From Promethearchaeota archaeon (GTDB lineage: Archaea; Asgardarchaeota; Lokiarchaeia; Sigyniarchaeales; SOKP01), in assembly GCA_048940645.1 (NCBI GenBank), contig JBHLOI010000043.1, positions 1 through 31,005 of the forward strand: DNA of 31,005 nucleotides, written 5' to 3'. Of this stretch, positions 24,297 to 31,005 are shown in pieces. The position numbers and the translations under genes were made by a program. The notes below the pieces were generated by a model that was not told the DNA's origin, did not search any database, and saw only the letters and a program-made list of their open reading frames with translations. Every line of letters begins with the position of its first letter. Position 1 is the stretch's first letter.

Positions 24297-26138
24297 TTAT
24301 TTTATTTTTCCAAAAAATTTTTGAACTAAAAAACTTAAGTCTTTCCAATTATCAAGATCAGTAGAACTTTCTTCTATATTATTGATAAGATCTTTATAAT
24401 TTATATCAAATTCTTGAATTAATGCCTTCAATTTTCTTTCAAATATAAATATATTTTCTTTTACAATCAGCACAAAGACGACATCTTTTGTATAATTTAA
24501 ATTAAATATTATTACTCGATCACCATGATCTATTGATCTAATTTGAGTTTCACCCTTAAGAATTGCTTTTAAAATGGTCATTAATCCAATTATTCCCCCA
24601 GAAATTAAAGAAGAATCACTATTTCTTTCCAATTTATTAAAAGTACAATCAAATAAAGGTAACCCAGACTTATAAATTATATAAAGATGGATTAGGTCAT
24701 CTCTCCATTCTTTTAATGGTAAATGAATTTTAAATGTAGAATAATTTTCATTATCTCCTGAGTCTATAAGAATTTGACCATTATGTAAATCCACAATTTG
24801 TTTAGAAAAGGAAAGTTCTTGAAATATATCATTTTCATTATATTGGCATAATTGACCTCTTATCTCTATTTCTCCAAAATCATTCACTTTTTTTAGATTA
24901 ATTAAAATATTTTGATTATTAGTATTCCTTCCTATATAGGAAATTATTTCTTTAATTACCTGTTTAATTCTTATCTTATCTAATTCAGAATATAAATCTT
25001 CAGAAAATTTTCTATTAGTTTTTATCTTCTGTAACTGTACTTTATCATTTACTGAATCAAGTAATTCCATTATTACCTCAACTAAACTTTCAATTTGTTT
25101 GTTTAATATTAATTTATCAGATTCTATTTTAGAAATGTTTACTATTTTTCCAACTAAATCTAATGATTTTTCTCCCTCATTTTTAATCAATTCTAAGAGT
25201 TTTATCGCATCCAAATCTAATTTATCCTTATAAGAATTTAAAAGGATATCAGTAGCGTTTGACAACACATTCAGGGGATTTCTTAATTGTTCTGAAGCTT
25301 TAGTGGTCATACTTTTTTTTATGTTATCGAAATCCTTAAGTCTTTTATTTTCTTCTCTAACGATTCTTTCTGCGAGTATTCTTTCAGTAATATCCTGAAA
25401 CATAACTTGTACAAATTTGCTGTCTCCAATTTCAACATTAGAGAAAAATGCTTCTAACCAAGATTTACTATTATTTTTATTTATAATTTCAAACTCTCTA
25501 ATTTCACTCAAACCAAAATCAAGAACATTTTGAAATATTTCTTCTAAAGAATCCATTTGTTTTTCATTTATTTGTAAAATATCAAATAAATACATATCTT
25601 TTAAACCACTCTTATTTCTATTTAGATATAACTCAGCAGAACTATTACAATCATATATTCGTTTTCTAGAATCCAATAAAATTATTGAATATGGAAAATT
25701 TTCGACCAAATTTCGAAATTTTTCTTCTGATTCTTTTAAAGTAATTTCTTTTTTTTTCCATTCAGATATATCTCTTCCAATTTTAACAATTTGTTCTATA
25801 TCACCTCTCTCATTCTTAATTGGATAGGCTTGTATCTCTAAATGTATTATATTCTCATTAACATAATGGTTGTGAATAGAATTACTGAATTTCCCAGTTT
25901 TTAAAACCTCTTCAACAGGGCATTTATATTCTGGTGATTTGCAAACTTTATTTCTTTCATGAGTTACTTTATAACATTTATTTCCTATGATTTGCTCTCT
26001 ATTAACACTATATTTTAAGCAAAAAGATTTATTCACACCTTTTATTGTAAAATCTTTGTCTAAAATCATTATTTCATCATATATAGAATCTAGAATAGTT
26101 TTAATGAGTTTATTTTCTTGTTCTATATTAAATTCCAT
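24297..26138 (-). CDS. PAS-PAS pseudo-histidine kinase with C-terminal longin-like domain
   Basis: Two PAS domains. H-box SEQLRNPL has no His, and the ATPase domain lacks N/G1/G2 boxes. C-terminal LIHLYIIYKSGLPLF..DSSLISGGIIGL..IRSIDHGD..FVLIVKE. SD AGGTGA precedes ATG 26138. Confidence 0.82.
   Translation of the reverse strand: MEFNIEQENKLIKTILDSIYDEIMILDKDFTIKGVNKSFCLKYSVNREQIIGNKCYKVTHERNKVCKSPEYKCPVEEVLKTGKFSNSIHNHYVNENIIHLEIQAYPIKNERGDIEQIVKIGRDISEWKKKEITLKESEEKFRNLVENFPYSIILLDSRKRIYDCNSSAELYLNRNKSGLKDMYLFDILQINEKQMDSLEEIFQNVLDFGLSEIREFEIINKNNSKSWLEAFFSNVEIGDSKFVQVMFQDITERILAERIVREENKRLKDFDNIKKSMTTKASEQLRNPLNVLSNATDILLNSYKDKLDLDAIKLLELIKNEGEKSLDLVGKIVNISKIESDKLILNKQIESLVEVIMELLDSVNDKVQLQKIKTNRKFSEDLYSELDKIRIKQVIKEIISYIGRNTNNQNILINLKKVNDFGEIEIRGQLCQYNENDIFQELSFSKQIVDLHNGQILIDSGDNENYSTFKIHLPLKEWRDDLIHLYIIYKSGLPLFDCTFNKLERNSDSSLISGGIIGLMTILKAILKGETQIRSIDHGDRVIIFNLNYTKDVVFVLIVKENIFIFERKLKALIQEFDINYKDLINNIEESSTDLDNWKDLSFLVQKFFGKIK
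25767..26078 (-). repeat. duplicated PAS-coding segment, copy A
   Basis: 87/104 aa identical, ungapped, to 27340..27651 (manual count). Confidence 0.9.
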
Positions 26139-26157
26139 GTAAATATCACCTGAAAAA

Positions 26158-27714
26158 TTAAACTGTGACTTTTTTAGCATTATTTTTTGTTCCATCACAT
26201 ATTTCGGGATATAACATTTCAAATAAAATGATAAAATTGCTACCCTTAGTATAATCATCCTTAACTTTATTTTCGACCCAGATTTTCCCATTATAGCTTT
26301 CTATTATCTTTTTTACAAGTGATAATCCTATTCCTAAACTTCTAATTGAATTATTTTTATTTTTATGGCCTCGTTTGAAAGCTATTTCCTTAAATTGATC
26401 TGGAATTCCTCTCCCATTATCAATAAATTCCATTTTAAGATACTCTTTACCATCTTTATGTTCTCTTGATATTTTGATTGATATCTCAATTATAGAATTA
26501 TCATTATGTCTTATAGCATTCAATAAAATATTTTCAAATAAATCAATTAAGAGATTGTTTGCTTTAATGTAAAATGTTTCATTTGGGGGTTCTATTTGTA
26601 TGATAATTTTTTTTCCTTGGAAACTTTTGATAATATATTCAATTGATTGTCTTAAAACGCCATAAACTTCTATTGGTGTAAAATTACTTTTATCATCTTC
26701 AATTTCAGAAAGTGTTCTAACATTTGATATCAAATTCTCGGCTCTTTTAATTTGCTCTTTAGCAATCTCGAACAATTTTTCTACATGTTCACTTTTCGTA
26801 GGTTTTTTTTGATATAATGGTAATAGCTCTATAAATGACAAAAAAAATTGTAAAATATTGTTAATATCATGAGTAAAAATATCCTTATACAAATTAGCTC
26901 GATTATAAGCGCTCCGATATCGTTTTTCTGATTCTTTCAAGATAAGTTCTGCTTTTTTACGTTCAGATACATCCCTTATTATATCAATTACTGCTGGTTG
27001 ACCCTTAAAATTTAGAATAGGTGTGCAACTATATTCAAAATGTTTTTTTTCAGTCTTACTTGAATTAAAATAAATTAATTCATATCTTTTATGTGCATTA
27101 TAATTATCTGATAATTTGTTAAATGAACAATGCTCGCATATCTCTTCATTATTTGTTAAAACTTTATAGCATTCTTTTCCAATTTGGTAACTTCCAAACA
27201 TTTTTTCTGCTTTTTTGTTCATATAAAAAATTTTCAAATCTTTTGAAATAACTACAATTGAATCATTTGTATTTGATAGTATTAAATTCAATTCTTTTTC
27301 AGATTCCTTGATTTCTTGTTCAATTTTCATTCGTTTAGTGATATCCCTTCCAATTTTAACGATTTGTTCTATACTACCTCTCTCATTCTTAATCGGATAG
27401 GCTAATATCTCTAAATATATTATGTCCTCATAAATATGATGATTGTGAATAGAATTACTGAATTTTCCAGTTTTTAAAACCTCTTCAACCGGACATTCAC
27501 ATTCTGGTGATTTACAGACGTTATTTCTCTTATGAGTTACTTTATAACATTTATTTCCTATGATTTGCTCTTTATTAACACCATATTTTAAGCAAACAGT
27601 TTTGTTCACATCTTTTATTGTAAAATCTTTATTTAAGATCATTATTTCATCAGATATGGAATCAAATATTGATCTTAAGTTCTGCTCTTGCTGACTTTTT
27701 TGTTTTTTTCTCAT
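26158..27714 (-). CDS. PAS-PAS sensor histidine kinase
   Basis: Two Cys-containing PAS domains. H-box FTHDINNILQ, N-box ENILLNAIRHN, G1 DNGRGI, G2 LGIGLSLVKKI, and GSNF. Confidence 0.93.
   Translation of the reverse strand: MRKKQKSQQEQNLRSIFDSISDEIMILNKDFTIKDVNKTVCLKYGVNKEQIIGNKCYKVTHKRNNVCKSPECECPVEEVLKTGKFSNSIHNHHIYEDIIYLEILAYPIKNERGSIEQIVKIGRDITKRMKIEQEIKESEKELNLILSNTNDSIVVISKDLKIFYMNKKAEKMFGSYQIGKECYKVLTNNEEICEHCSFNKLSDNYNAHKRYELIYFNSSKTEKKHFEYSCTPILNFKGQPAVIDIIRDVSERKKAELILKESEKRYRSAYNRANLYKDIFTHDINNILQFFLSFIELLPLYQKKPTKSEHVEKLFEIAKEQIKRAENLISNVRTLSEIEDDKSNFTPIEVYGVLRQSIEYIIKSFQGKKIIIQIEPPNETFYIKANNLLIDLFENILLNAIRHNDNSIIEISIKISREHKDGKEYLKMEFIDNGRGIPDQFKEIAFKRGHKNKNNSIRSLGIGLSLVKKIIESYNGKIWVENKVKDDYTKGSNFIILFEMLYPEICDGTKNNAKKVTV
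27340..27651 (-). repeat. duplicated PAS-coding segment, copy B
   Basis: Paralogous to 25767..26078. Confidence 0.9.
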
Positions 27715-27749: not shown

Positions 27750-28667
27750 TTATTTTAATATTTTTTTAAAATCTAGAAATTTTTTTTCATTAAATATTTC
27801 TTTTTCTTTCTGATAAAACTTACAACTCTGCTTTTCCAAGCCAGTCACGTAAATGCATTTCTTAGCACACCAATAGAGACCAGTTGGATTAGGATTGTAA
27901 GCAAATTTACAATCTGAAGAGATAAATTCTTTTTTTCCCTCTCTCCAATTAAAGTAATCAAACATTCTTCGACAGAAAATTTCAGAATTTTCATCAAATG
28001 GATAACTCATTATACAATGTGTTCCAATTTTAGTTTTCCTTAATTTTACAGGAATAAATCCTAATGTGTTAAAGAATTTTAGTTTATATTGCTCACAATT
28101 CGCTACTAATAAAAATAGATAAAATTCATTATAACTCTCAATTTCTTGTTCAATTATAAATTGAAATAATTTTGAGCCTAATCCTCTTCTTCTATAATTC
28201 TTTTTAATCTCGATAGTATCTAAATAATAAAGATATACTCCATTATATATCGATAAAAATATTAAATTCAAACAACCAATTATTTCATTGAATCCATTAA
28301 AAATATAATGAGTCTTACTCATATATCCATAATACCAATCTTCTGAATCCTCACAATTTTCTAATAATTTAGCGGGTAATTCATCTTTTCGATATATTTT
28401 AAATTCATAATCTTTTAACAAAAGATTCCAATAAAGTTTGCTCTTATCTAAAATATTTTTGTAGCGTTCTTTTGAGCAATAGTTAGTTCTTAAATCTATA
28501 GAATAACTATTTAATAAAGCTAATGGATATAATCGATCTTTTTTTTTTTCTACAGTTAATACTGATTTTTTTCGAATATAAGGTATATTAAGCCCTAAAT
28601 AGTCATTTAAAATCTCAAAATTAATAATTTGATTTTTATTTTTCTCTTCATGGGTTTTTAATATCAT
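27750..28667 (-). CDS. GNAT family N-acetyltransferase with C-terminal Cys-rich domain
   Basis: YLDTIEIKKNYRRRGLGSKL (acetyl-CoA motif A) and KFFNTLGF. C-terminal SDCKFA..GLYWCAKKCIYVT..EKQSCKFY. Confidence 0.85.
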   Translation of the reverse strand: MILKTHEEKNKNQIINFEILNDYLGLNIPYIRKKSVLTVEKKKDRLYPLALLNSYSIDLRTNYCSKERYKNILDKSKLYWNLLLKDYEFKIYRKDELPAKLLENCEDSEDWYYGYMSKTHYIFNGFNEIIGCLNLIFLSIYNGVYLYYLDTIEIKKNYRRRGLGSKLFQFIIEQEIESYNEFYLFLLVANCEQYKLKFFNTLGFIPVKLRKTKIGTHCIMSYPFDENSEIFCRRMFDYFNWREGKKEFISSDCKFAYNPNPTGLYWCAKKCIYVTGLEKQSCKFYQKEKEIFNEKKFLDFKKILK

Positions 28668-28799
28668 TAAGGAATCCCTTTTGATAATAGTGTGTATCTG
28701 AAACGATAATCTTTTAATTTAATTAAACTAATTGATATTATTTACATAATTTTTACTTCCTTTTTTGGTAAGTCTATACTGAATGATTTAATTATAAAT

Positions 28800-29258
28800 T
28801 TACGATAAATAAACCAATTTACTCTTATTCTCGATATTTTTACTTTTCTCCAGAGTTGAGAAATAATTTGATAATTTAATAATTGTTTGATTTAATTCAA
28901 ATAGAATTATAGCTAAATTCAAATATATTGGAAATATTACTGAAATCATAATTTCATTATTGATTGATTCAAGAATAATCATAAATCCATTATCATCTAG
29001 TTGATTTCCAGCTTGAATCTTAATTTGTTTTACGAAATTGCGATTTTTTATTATATCAAGACCATTTTCAGCTAAAGAAATTACTCCAGCACAGATAGCT
29101 CCTATAGATTGAAAATAATCATCGTCTTCATTGAAATTACCTTGATCTACAGCTATTATAAAACCATCTTCAGTAAATAAGAAAGAGCTCGTAATGTCTG
29201 TATGTTCTCTAAAAGCTTTCAAAATATAACTAATATTCTTTTCTGTTAAATTATACAT
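28800..29258 (-). CDS. roadblock/LC7 (MglB/LAMTOR-like) domain protein
   Basis: ITSSFLFTEDGFIIA, SIGAICAGVISLAE, and LAIILFEL in the C-terminal helix. Overlaps the GTPase stop by 8 nt. Confidence 0.82.
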   Translation of the reverse strand: MYNLTEKNISYILKAFREHTDITSSFLFTEDGFIIAVDQGNFNEDDDYFQSIGAICAGVISLAENGLDIIKNRNFVKQIKIQAGNQLDDNGFMIILESINNEIMISVIFPIYLNLAIILFELNQTIIKLSNYFSTLEKSKNIENKSKLVYLS

Positions 29259-29901
29259 CTAAAACGGACACCTCATCTTTAGATATAATTTTTTCAGAAT
29301 TTCCATTTAAAATAATTTTGAGGACAGCAATAATAGCATCTTTTATTCCAATATTACATTTAGCAGATCCTTTATATACTACTTCACCTACTAGATTTTT
29401 AATCATTTCGATGTCATGGTAATCTTCTCTATCAGATTTATTAGCAATAATTTTCATAGGAATATTATATCCTAAACCTGTTCTTGTTTCCTCTAATATA
29501 ACTAATGCATTTCCAATATTAGCTAAATCACAGCCATCTATTAATAAAATAACACCATCGCTCCCTTTTGCTAATATTTTTCTAACTGAAGCAAATTGCA
29601 TTTGTCCAGGACACCCTTTTAATTCTAAATCCATAATATGCCACCCAGAATATTCGTCCTTATCTCTCAAATATTCAGTTTTGCTCATTATTAAACCGTT
29701 CGTCTCAAAATTTAAATTTGGTCTTGCCCAAATCAATCTTGCTAAATCAAAACCAGTAGTAGTATGGGTTTTATCTTTGTCAAATGGTATATTTAGTTCT
29801 TTTTCCACAGAAATTGCTTTATTATCAAGAGTATGGATTAAAGTTGTTTTACCCGAATTAAAAAATCCAGTTATAAAAATTTTTATTTTATTATTTAACA
29901 T
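29251..29901 (-). CDS. small GTPase, MglA/CvnD-like
   Basis: G1 GFFNSGKTT, G2 TTTGFD, G3 GCPGQ, G4 NKSD and G5 SAK. Confidence 0.9.
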   Translation of the reverse strand: MLNNKIKIFITGFFNSGKTTLIHTLDNKAISVEKELNIPFDKDKTHTTTGFDLARLIWARPNLNFETNGLIMSKTEYLRDKDEYSGWHIMDLELKGCPGQMQFASVRKILAKGSDGVILLIDGCDLANIGNALVILEETRTGLGYNIPMKIIANKSDREDYHDIEMIKNLVGEVVYKGSAKCNIGIKDAIIAVLKIILNGNSEKIISKDEVSVLDV

Positions 29902-30251
29902 TTCACAAATCTTTATTATTTTTCTATATTTTCATAAAAAAAATTATATTTAGAATATTTTATTTCAAAATCTTTTTCTTTTACCGTAAAATTAATATAT
30001 ATTTTTTTATTTAAATTTATTTTTTTAAGAGAATTATTATAAAAATCTTTTAAATTATAACGAATCCGTAGAGTAATAAACATATTTTATAATAATCTTT
30101 ATTAAAAACTTTTTTTCCTTATGAAAAAATTTATATACAAATTATTTCATTACTTTTTCGTATAGAAAAATAATGATTTAAAAAAAATTCTTAAAAAAAA
30201 TTGAATAAAATTATAAAAAATATAAAAAACAGATTAAATAGATGACAAATA
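29902..30251. promoter_or_regulatory. extremely AT-rich divergent intergenic region (probable bidirectional promoters)
   Basis: Lies between two divergent operons and has several TTTATATA/TTAATATA-like boxes. Individual TATA boxes cannot be pinned down. Confidence 0.45.
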
Positions 30252-30722
30252 ATGCCAAATTATAAACAATTGTTAGATATTTCAAATGCAACATTAGTTG
30301 CAATGGGAAAAGCTATGATCAACATGGGTTTAAATATTCCATTAGTTTGGAATGAATGTGCAAATGTGTTTGAAAATAGTGCAAAAAATCTTTTAAAAGA
30401 TGCTGGTATGGTAATTGAAGGTAATGATGTTCAATCGATAACTGAAAATTTTGCTAAGAAGGTAAAAGAAATGGGATTCTGCCAAAGAGCTGATATTCTA
30501 GAACTCAGCGATGAAAAGCTTGTTATGGATCTTGGAGAATGTATCTTTGCTTCGGCTACAACTGTTTTTAGAGGTAATGATCGAAATTTTATACCTCCGT
30601 GTCCATTTATGTCAATGTTATATAGCACAATTGCAGAAAAAACAGGGAAAATCGGCTATATAGAATCTTGTCAATGGAAACCTGAAGAGAATACATCAAT
30701 TTTTACTGTAAAGTTAGAATAA
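30252..30722 (+). CDS. V4R/MetOD-like (Bet3/H-NOX-related fold) protein
   Basis: Helical N-terminal half, then LVMDLGECIF..PPCPFMSML..IESCQW..SIFTVKL cysteine pattern. Confidence 0.65.
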   Translation: MPNYKQLLDISNATLVAMGKAMINMGLNIPLVWNECANVFENSAKNLLKDAGMVIEGNDVQSITENFAKKVKEMGFCQRADILELSDEKLVMDLGECIFASATTVFRGNDRNFIPPCPFMSMLYSTIAEKTGKIGYIESCQWKPEENTSIFTVKLE

Positions 30723-30741
30723 ATTAGGAGTGATGAAAAAC

Positions 30742-30870
30742 ATGGCGCAATCAGATTGTAAGTATGCTGGAGTTGAAAATTCTGATGGTTTAATATGGTG
30801 CGAGAAGAAAAATATCTATGTAACTGCGAAGGAGAAGGATACATGTGAATTTTATGAGAAAAAGAGTTAA
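30742..30870 (+). CDS. 42-aa three-Cys microprotein, homologous to the GNAT C-terminal domain (not in ORF track)
   Basis: MAQSDCKYAGVENSDGLIWCEKKNIYVTAKEKDTCEFYEKKS*. SD AGGAGTGA lies upstream, and the ORF fills the gap between two co-oriented genes. 22/37 identity to 27807..27917. Confidence 0.85.
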   Translation: MAQSDCKYAGVENSDGLIWCEKKNIYVTAKEKDTCEFYEKKS

Positions 30871-30885
30871 TGAGGAGGGAAAAAA

Positions 30886-31005
30886 ATGAGTGCAAAACAA
30901 GAAAAAATACAAGAAATATTATTAGAATTAGAAAAAAATTCAGAAGTGTCAAATAGTGCTCTAGTATCATTGAAAGGACAGATGATGGCAAGTGCTCTCC
31001 ATAAA
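30886..31005 (+). CDS. roadblock/LC7 domain protein, N-terminal part (runs off the window)
   Basis: SD GAGGAGG; reads MSAKQEKIQEILLELEKNSEVSNSALVSLKGQMMASALHK (helix + SALVSxxGxMMAS). Confidence 0.78.
   Translation, partial: MSAKQEKIQEILLELEKNSEVSNSALVSLKGQMMASALHK

What the first reader, a model, noticed from the sequence alone, without database searches (positions are those of the whole stretch)
27807..30870. Unannotated 42-aa microprotein is a free-standing copy of the GNAT's C-terminal Cys domain
Seen: 30742..30870 (SDCKYAGVENSDGLIWCEKKNIYVTAKEKDTCEFYEK) aligns ungapped with the GNAT tail at 27807..27917 (SDCKFAYNPNPTGLYWCAKKCIYVTGLEKQSCKFYQK): 22/37 identical, C-x13-C-x14-C conserved. 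It has its own SD and is below the ORF-track cutoff. The pattern resembles small CxxC..C..CxxF/Y metal/Fe-S domains lacking the first Cys. Inference: a new three-Cys metal/Fe-S or docking module; the free form may titrate, compete with or heterodimerise with the acetyltransferase, like an antitoxin or redox switch.
Basis: partly seen in the sequence, partly recalled or inferred. Interest (0 to 1): 0.82.

Follow-up and report, generated by a model that had tools for sequence, protein, structure and literature searches.

The report
Cysteine microprotein paired with Bet3/V4R-fold gene
A real 42-residue cysteine protein of an Asgard archaeon always sits right after a Bet3/V4R-fold gene in a small-GTPase/Roadblock operon. 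One lineage has fused a copy onto a neighbouring acetyltransferase, probably as a docking tag, but metal binding and the partner are still only predicted.

Summary
The ORF at 30742..30870 (+) and residues 246-287 of the GNAT at 27750..28667 (-) share 23/42 residues (BLASTP E 7e-14). They are the only two copies in the genome.

- **A real gene.** dN/dS is 0.03-0.3, and free 39-57 aa homologues occur in 40 of 400 Asgard genomes and in two bacterial lineages.
- **No described family fits.** Pfam, NCBIfam and PDB sequences give nothing. The HiPIP, HPIP_like and DUF1540 profiles do not hit it.
- **A metal site is likely.** Distant relatives carry a fourth Cys (CxxC or CxC) where the window has [ST]-D-C. 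Zn versus Fe-S is open.
- **The partner is the upstream gene.** All 47 strong matches to the upstream 156-aa gene are followed at once by the microprotein, with gaps of -4 to 22 nt. That gene models as a Bet3/TRAPPC3/V4R fold.
- **Complex prediction gives only weak support** (0.32; best control 0.00).
- **The fusion is derived.** The GNAT-fused copies form one clade (100/100) confined to the window's family.

The scan reached a similar reading on another genome (e1-5591489).

The parts
30742..30870 (+). Free Cys microprotein gene (42 aa), motif [ST]-D-C-x13-W-C-x14-C-x2-Y
   Evidence: ORF and start. Homologues P0001-P0005. dN/dS 0.03-0.3. Profile E 1.5e-23.
30726..30730 (+). Shine-Dalgarno-like AGGAG, 11 nt before the ATG and 3 nt after the stop of the upstream gene
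   Evidence: Read from the sequence. GGAG-like motifs at the same place in relatives.
30252..30722 (+). 156-aa Bet3/TRAPPC3/V4R-fold protein, the inferred partner of the microprotein
   Evidence: AF2 pLDDT 91. Foldseek matches YslB, TRAPPC3/Bet3, Thor TRAPPC3 7yh3, H-NOX and PoxR at prob 1.00. No Pfam hit. 47 of 47 strong matches are followed by the microprotein.
27807..27917 (-). Fused copy of the module, residues 251-287 of the GNAT, with conserved flanks on both sides
   Evidence: BLASTP E 7e-14. Conserved in 38 GNAT proteins. One clade 100/100. dN/dS 0.03-0.14.
27750..28667 (-). GNAT acetyltransferase (305 aa) with intact R-x-x-G-x-G motif (RRRGLGS); relatives often carry N-terminal HEAT repeats
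   Evidence: Pfam Acetyltransf_1 at 30.8 bits, above the cut-off. HEAT-GNAT-Cys forms of about 490 aa.
30886..31005 (+). Roadblock/LC7-type gene, cut by the contig end; 121 aa in relatives
   Evidence: HMM built from relatives, E 4e-14. Pfam Robl_LC7 on the orthologues.
29251..29901 (-). Small GTPase (216 aa; MglA/Sar1/Rab-like), divergent from the V4R-like operon
   Evidence: Pfam and NCBIfam small_GTP. PDB sequence hits to SAR1 and MglA.
28800..29258 (-). Roadblock/LC7-like protein (152 aa), overlapping the GTPase stop
   Evidence: Pfam Robl_LC7 E 8.5e-4, below the cut-off. Family HMM E 2e-48.
26158..27714 (-). PAS histidine kinase downstream of the GNAT, a recurrent cluster member
   Evidence: Pfam PAS, HisKA and HATPase_c. 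A kinase flanks the cluster in most loci.

Best explanation
The 42-aa ORF encodes a metal-binding mini-domain of about 40 residues, with three Cys plus a conserved Asp here and four Cys in distant relatives. It is the obligate small partner of the Bet3/TRAPPC3/V4R-fold protein encoded just upstream. It is made by coupled translation and probably docks on that protein. The pair belongs to a conserved operon: V4R-like, microprotein, Roadblock, small GTPase, Roadblock, Roadblock. This operon looks like a ligand- or redox-sensing regulator of an MglA/Rag-like GTPase. In the window's family one duplicate of the microprotein gene was fused once to the C-terminus of a (HEAT-)GNAT acetyltransferase in the same cluster. 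The fused copy most likely serves as an address tag that brings the acetyltransferase to the same docking site, where it would share or compete for that site with the free form. Shown: the gene is real, the family exists, the linkage is strict, the partner's fold is known, and the fusion has one origin. Inferred: metal binding, physical binding to the V4R-like protein, and the docking role of the GNAT tail.
For: - **Real gene.** dN/dS is 0.03-0.3 with near-saturated dS for both free and fused copies.
- **A family of its own.** An exhaustive profile search finds 30 representatives, mostly 39-57 aa free forms plus GNAT fusions.
- **Invariant residues.** Three Cys are invariant across the wider family alignments; A, N, L, W and two Y are invariant only within the closer 19-sequence alignment. 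Relatives have CxxC or CxC in place of [ST]-D-C.
- **Linkage.** All 47 strong V4R-like matches (E <= 1e-39), in 38 of 400 Asgard genomes, are followed directly by the module on the same strand. The gap is -4 to 22 nt in 22 of 23 pairs, with GGAG-like motifs.
- **The pair persists without the rest.** It occurs where GTPase and Roadblock are absent (L044, L049, L051, L067) and in bacteria.
- **Partner fold.** Bet3/V4R/H-NOX.
- **Complex prediction: weak support.** Score 0.32, best of 3 controls 0.00. The mark was reached by 58 of 80 solved complexes and 2 of 110 mismatched pairs. At 0.60 or under it was reached by only 7 of those 80 and by both mismatches that passed. The runs agree in at least 81% of contacts and the partner's pLDDT is at least 71. 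The counts hold only roughly, because my own alignments were used and Zn rode along.
- **Fusion.** The fused copies form one clade (100/100), and every one with a known genome lies in family f1. The fused GNAT lies within a few kb of the free gene in two different gene orders.
- **Repeated duplication.** Other lineages have a second free copy instead, or three tandem copies.
Against: - No experiment, and no confident structure of the module: AF2 pLDDT is 62.
- A complex score of 0.32 is in the range where passes are more often wrong than right unless the prior is high.
- The metal is unknown.
- The first ligand position varies (CxxC, CxC or none).
- Two free copies (L053) have no V4R-like gene nearby.
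- Nothing shows that the GNAT tail binds the same site. Its extra conserved flanks could mean it packs on the GNAT itself.
- Expression was not tested.
Confidence: 0.55

Rival explanations
1. The free peptide's main role is to pair with, titrate or compete against the GNAT's C-terminal module, like an antitoxin or a plant microProtein.
For: The two copies share 55% identity. They sit within about 3 kb of each other in many genomes of one family.
Against: The free form occurs in Thor, Hermod, Frey and other Asgard lineages and in bacteria that have no fused GNAT. Its strict partner is the V4R-like gene, in 47 of 47 places. The fusion is one derived clade.
Confidence: 0.12
2. The module is a labile [4Fe-4S] (HiPIP-like) redox, O2 or NO sensor. 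The state of its cluster, rather than mere docking, gates the GTPase regulators. The GNAT copy would make acetylation redox-dependent.
For: - The pattern C-x2-C-x13-C-x11-14-C with aromatic residues next to the Cys in four-Cys relatives recalls HiPIP. This is my own knowledge, not a test.
- Three Cys plus Asp or His ligation is known for Fe-S sites, for example HPAD gamma (PMC13450708).
- HiPIP-like mini-subunits dock on larger partners in glycyl radical enzymes.
- The hosts are anaerobes and the neighbours are PAS kinases.
- An earlier scan note on another genome named this fold.
Against: The Pfam HIPIP and HPIP_like profiles do not hit either copy. There is no PDB sequence hit. My model has no structural match. 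Zn explains the same Cys pattern.
Confidence: 0.2
3. The microprotein binds the Roadblock proteins or the GTPase, not the V4R-like protein, as a small clamp or regulator of the Roadblock dimer.
For: A Roadblock gene follows the microprotein in most loci, and a GTPase follows that.
Against: The V4R-like/microprotein pair persists where Roadblock and GTPase are not adjacent (L044, L049, L051, L067-69). Its spacing to the V4R-like gene is the tightest.
Confidence: 0.1
4. It is a nucleic-acid-binding zinc-finger micro-protein that regulates the operon, like some archaeal zinc-finger micro-proteins.
For: It is small and Cys-rich. Archaeal zinc-finger micro-proteins exist (PMC11241148 and PMC10716476, listed).
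Against: The net charge is about -1 (7 K against 8 D/E, read from the sequence). It has no C(P)XCG motifs. It is fused to the end of an acetyltransferase. It is strictly coupled to a ligand-binding-fold gene.
Confidence: 0.05

Closest known systems
HiPIP-like [4Fe-4S] small subunits of glycyl radical enzymes (HPAD gamma, BSS beta/gamma, MASS beta/gamma; Pfam HPIP_like PF18524) and HiPIP (PF01355)
   Same: Tiny Cys proteins that dock as accessory subunits on a larger partner. Their ligand spacing is similar (CxxC, then two single Cys about 13 residues apart) and aromatic residues sit next to the Cys. A non-Cys fourth ligand is known in HPAD gamma.
   Different: Neither Pfam profile hits the module. 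There is no PDB sequence or fold match with my low-confidence model. The partner is a Bet3/V4R-fold protein, not a glycyl radical enzyme. The metal is unknown.
Plant and animal microProteins (miPs)
   Same: A small single-domain protein homologous to one domain of a larger protein encoded nearby. Competition for a shared site is possible.
   Different: Here the small form is the ancestral, widespread one with its own obligate partner, and the large protein acquired the domain later. Sequestration of the large protein is not shown.
Zinc-finger micro-proteins of Haloferax volcanii (C(P)XCG type)
   Same: Archaeal proteins under 70 aa with four Cys that bind zinc (PMC11241148, PMC10716476).
   Different: The module has no C(P)XCG knuckles. 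Its Cys are spread as CxxC/x13/x14, the first Cys is often missing, and there is no sequence relation.
Asgard TRAPPC3/V4R proteins (Thor TRAPPC3, PDB 7yh3; Tran et al. 2024, PMC10933270). This concerns the partner, not the module.
   Same: The upstream protein has this fold and sits with Roadblock and small-GTPase genes.
   Different: Only two Cys (C97, C117) are near-invariant, against four-Cys Zn sites in the solved proteins. The Pfam V4R profile does not hit it. That paper reports no accompanying microprotein and says MK-D1 GTPases are generally not in operons with RB or TRAPPC3 genes.

Membership tests
HiPIP (Pfam PF01355) | Match to the family profile | tested here: not met
   The six-frame search of the own genome with PF01355 finds nothing at E <= 0.01, while the control genome rings. 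It is not among the Pfam hits of 33 members at E <= 10.
HiPIP (Pfam PF01355) | Four Cys ligands (CxxC plus two single Cys) holding a [4Fe-4S] cluster | tested here: inconclusive
   Four-Cys relatives have C-x2-C-x13-C-x11-14-C. The window's copies have only three Cys. The cluster itself cannot be tested here.
HPIP_like small subunits of glycyl radical enzymes (Pfam PF18524) | Match to the family profile, or fold match to HpdC or BSS small subunits | tested here: not met
   PF18524 hits neither copy at E <= 10. Foldseek and VIA-align give no match for model m1c737759ac95, but its pLDDT of 62 makes the fold test weak.
DUF1540 (Pfam PF07561) | Match to the family profile | tested here: not met
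   No match in the own genome while the B. subtilis control rings. One of 33 members reaches E 0.39, which is not significant.
C(P)XCG zinc-finger micro-proteins | Two C(P)XCG motifs | tested here: not met
   No such motif in any member (alignments).
microProtein (miP) concept | A small single-domain protein homologous to a domain of a larger protein | tested here: met
   BLASTP E 7e-14 to the GNAT tail.
microProtein (miP) concept | Acts by sequestering or competing with the larger protein | not testable with these tools
   Needs binding and activity assays. The phyletic data argue that this is not its primary role.
Bet3/TRAPPC3/V4R fold (the upstream partner gene) | Two-layer alpha/beta fold shared by Bet3, V4R and H-NOX | tested here: met
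   AF2 pLDDT 91. Foldseek prob 1.00 to 3njc, 6aq3, 1wc8, 7yh3 and 5frw, with TM 0.52-0.60.
Bet3/TRAPPC3/V4R fold (the upstream partner gene) | Pfam V4R (PF02830) profile match, and a four-ligand Zn site | tested here: not met
   No Pfam hit for any of 23 members. Only C97 and C117 are near-invariant.

The most novel reading that the evidence does not exclude
The microprotein and the Bet3/V4R-fold protein together form one composite metal or Fe-S sensor. Its metal site may be completed in trans: V4R-like Cys140 appears only where the microprotein lacks its own first Cys. This pair would be the input subunit of an archaeal proto-TRAPP/Ragulator-like GEF or GAP complex for an MglA/Rag-like GTPase. 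In Lokiarchaeal relatives, acetylation would be wired in through a GNAT that carries the same plug.
Probability: 0.15. Interest if true: 0.85.

Novelty: new variant of a known kind. Interest (0 to 1): 0.6.

Why it matters
Asgard archaea encode many small GTPases, Roadblock proteins and TRAPPC3/V4R proteins. Which of them work together is unknown, and a recent structural study found that they are generally not in operons (PMC10933270). This conserved operon names a specific candidate complex: V4R-like protein, microprotein, Roadblock proteins and GTPase. It includes a previously undescribed obligate microprotein that gene callers can miss. It also shows a natural case of a microprotein being captured as a C-terminal tag by an enzyme. 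All of this can be tested directly with recombinant proteins.

Tried and rejected
- Pfam and NCBIfam scans of the module found nothing.
- PDB sequence searches with three profiles and one four-Cys member found nothing significant.
- The AF2 model of the module (pLDDT 62) had no match by VIA-align wide or Foldseek PDB.
- ESM Atlas gave only its own kind. A 12% DUF6472 viral cluster at score 0.85 is a lead only.
- The word-based search for longer fused forms missed even the window's own GNAT.
- The search for related loci with the V4R-like alignment failed for lack of a conserved stretch.
- One tree script did not return.
- A kinship-aware test of the complementary Cys pattern had only 3 independent contrasts and is not significant.
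- I considered an Arf-type N-terminal acetylation target for the GNAT and dropped it. The GTPase P-loop starts at about residue 11, so there is no N-terminal helix (sequence).
- The antisense ORF at 30671..30991 (-) was rejected as spurious, since purifying selection is on the + frame.
Full report
**Observation.** The window holds a short ORF on the + strand ending at 30870. In-frame starts lie at 30730 (GTG), 30733 and 30742 (ATG). Orthologues start M-A-[KQS]-S-D-C, so the ATG at 30742 is the start and the protein has 42 residues. An AGGAG lies 11 nt upstream.

BLASTP against the 305-aa GNAT on the other strand (27750..28667) gives an ungapped match of 23/42 residues, E 7e-14, to GNAT residues 246-287. 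A six-frame search of the whole 3.83-Mb assembly finds only these two copies. The window is the whole contig C85, so the operon is cut at 31005.

**Is it a gene?** Free homologues of 41-42 aa exist in related MAGs, one of them annotated by NCBI as a hypothetical protein of a Promethearchaeota archaeon. Among relatives the 34-codon core shows 9-17 synonymous against 2-20 non-synonymous differences. dN/dS is 0.03-0.3 where dS is not saturated, for both free and fused copies. The + frame is under purifying selection. The 106-aa antisense ORF is spurious.

**The family.**
- Pfam and NCBIfam give nothing for the module.
- PDB sequence searches with three profiles give nothing.
- A profile search of 1.84 billion representative proteins finds only 30 at E <= 0.001. 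Most are free proteins of 39-57 aa, and the rest are GNAT fusions.
- The three Cys are invariant across the wider family alignments.
- A at +3, an N, L, W before Cys2, a Y, and Y at +3 of Cys3 are invariant only in the closer 19-sequence alignment, and vary in distant members.
- In the window's subfamily the first Cys is preceded by S-D or T-D.
- In more distant lineages there is a further Cys two or three residues upstream (CxC or CxxC).

This is the pattern of a metal site.

Zn or Fe-S cannot be told apart here. The spacing and the aromatic residues next to the Cys recall HiPIP, but that comes from my own knowledge and is not a test. The Pfam HIPIP, HPIP_like and DUF1540 profiles do not hit either copy. 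My AF2 model of the free form is poor: pLDDT 62, a hairpin at 22-31 and a helix at 33-38. It has no match in the PDB.

**Context.** I fetched 27 regions from other genomes and labelled their ORFs with HMMs built from the window's proteins.
- The free gene lies directly after a gene of about 156 aa homologous to 30252..30722.
- It is then followed by a Roadblock gene (121 aa), a small GTPase, and two or three more Roadblock-type genes.
- The window's lineage carries a rearranged form: GTPase, Roadblock, GNAT with the Cys module, then kinases, all on the opposite strand.
- The gap between the upstream stop and the microprotein start is -4 to 22 nt in 22 of 23 pairs, with GGAG-like motifs inside the end of the upstream gene.

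Two phylum-wide six-frame scans test this from both sides. The module is found in 40 of 400 Asgard genomes, in 20 of 85 genera. The upstream gene has 47 strong matches (E <= 1e-39) in 38 of those genomes. By comparing coordinates, all 47 are followed by a module match on the same strand. The two module-positive genomes without the upstream gene show only the GNAT-fused copy, at or near a contig end. Weaker paralogues of the upstream gene (E 1e-33 to 1e-10) have no module.

The pair also stands without the GTPase and Roadblock genes (L044, L049, L051). It occurs in bacteria as well:
- A Zixibacteria MAG has Roadblock, V4R-like, three tandem microproteins, Roadblock, an MglA-like GTPase and an FHA/PatA_N protein.
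- Another bacterium has a PAS-sigma54 activator, a V4R protein, the V4R-like gene and the microprotein.

Record titles name Promethearchaeota, Thorarchaeota, Hermodarchaeota and Freyarchaeota.

**The partner.** The upstream protein has no Pfam or PDB sequence hit. It folds with pLDDT 91. It matches YslB, TRAPPC3/Bet3 (including Thor TRAPPC3 7yh3), H-NOX and the PoxR/MopR V4R sensor domains at Foldseek probability 1.00, TM 0.52-0.60.

Solved Asgard TRAPPC3 and PoxR hold a Zn through four Cys (PMC10933270). Here only C97 and C117 are near-invariant.

A complex prediction of this protein with the microprotein, using my own alignments and with two Zn riding along, gave weak support.
- The score was 0.32, and the best of 3 controls was 0.00.
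- The mark was reached by 58 of 80 solved complexes and by 2 of 110 mismatched pairs.
- At 0.60 or under it was reached by only 7 of those 80, and by both mismatches that passed.
- The runs agree in at least 81% of contacts, and the partner's pLDDT is at least 71.
- The counts hold only roughly for this job.

Given the strict linkage the prior was high, so I take binding as likely but not shown.

**The GNAT copy.** Thirty-eight proteins carry the module after a GNAT domain. Many are about 490 aa with N-terminal HEAT repeats. The window's GNAT has the acetyl-CoA motif RRRGLGS and passes Pfam's cut-off.

On a tree of 91 modules the 21 fused copies form one clade (100/100). Every fused copy with a known genome lies in the window's family. 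With only 43 columns the rest of the tree is poorly resolved and unrooted.

The fused GNAT lies within a few kb of the free gene in two different gene orders. Other lineages have duplicated the module differently. Thor-type genomes have a second free copy upstream of the V4R-like gene, and the Zixibacteria MAG has three in tandem.

The simplest reading is that the site or complex takes more than one module. In the window's family, an acetyltransferase acquired one module as a plug for that site.

The module is real, new and probably metal-binding. The 'free-standing copy of the GNAT's domain' is in fact the older form, and its constant companion is the V4R-like gene. An antitoxin-like titration of the GNAT cannot be its general role. 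Competition between the free and fused forms for one docking site remains possible in this family.

**Known comparisons.** No described family fits by profile. Functionally, the nearest known things are the HiPIP-like mini-subunits that dock on glycyl radical enzymes (PMC13450708) and the microProtein concept. I saw it after forming my own reading and could not reproduce the fold match.

**Limits.**
- There is no confident model of the module.
- The metal is unknown.
- The docking of the GNAT tail was not tested.

The cluster is patchy. None of 41 other genomes of the window's genus has the V4R-like gene, and the closest copies are in another genus.

Noticed in passing
window 30252-30722 with 30742-30870, and 48 gene pairs in loci L001-L083: V4R-like Cys140 ('IESCQW') is present in 23 of 35 pairs whose microprotein has three Cys. 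It is present in 0 of 13 pairs whose microprotein has an extra N-terminal Cys (CxxC or CxC). The two never occur together. This would fit a metal site completed in trans. However, 12 pairs have neither, and a kinship-aware test has only 3 contrasts and is not significant.
   Followed up: partly
window (contig C85) against its genus: None of 41 other genomes of the window's genus has the V4R-like gene. One has a GNAT-Cys fusion at a contig start. The nearest copies (about 88% identical) are in another genus of the family. The cluster is accessory, transferred, or the contig is mis-binned; assembly contamination is 3.7%.
   Followed up: no
L065:4469-9004 (Zixibacteria MAG): This bacterial version of the cluster reads Roadblock, V4R-like (148 aa), three tandem Cys microproteins (44, 44 and 42 aa, with C-E-H-Y after the last Cys in two of them), Roadblock, an MglA-like GTPase and an FHA/PatA_N protein.
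   Followed up: partly
L067:928-5613: In a bacterium the V4R-like/microprotein pair follows a PAS-sigma54 activator and a 300-aa V4R protein. No GTPase or Roadblock is nearby.
   Followed up: partly
P0066 (115 aa, one Logan record): The N-terminal half of the module is followed by a region with a G-C-P-Y-C motif, which resembles a glutaredoxin active site. It is a single sequence and may be a chimera.
   Followed up: no
G164:C47:1528-1992: Here the V4R-like match lies in a 528-aa open frame, and the module match after it is partial. This may be a fused or misassembled form.
   Followed up: no
L042:7331-10634 and most other loci: V4R-like, microprotein, Roadblock, GTPase, Roadblock and Roadblock form a co-directional, tightly spaced run in many Asgard genomes. 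PMC10933270 states that MK-D1 GTPase genes are generally not in operons with RB or TRAPPC3 genes.
   Followed up: partly
window 24297-27714: Two PAS histidine-kinase-type genes follow the GNAT. In the second (24297..26291) the HATPase_c match is weak, E 0.011. Kinases flank the cluster in most relatives.
   Followed up: no
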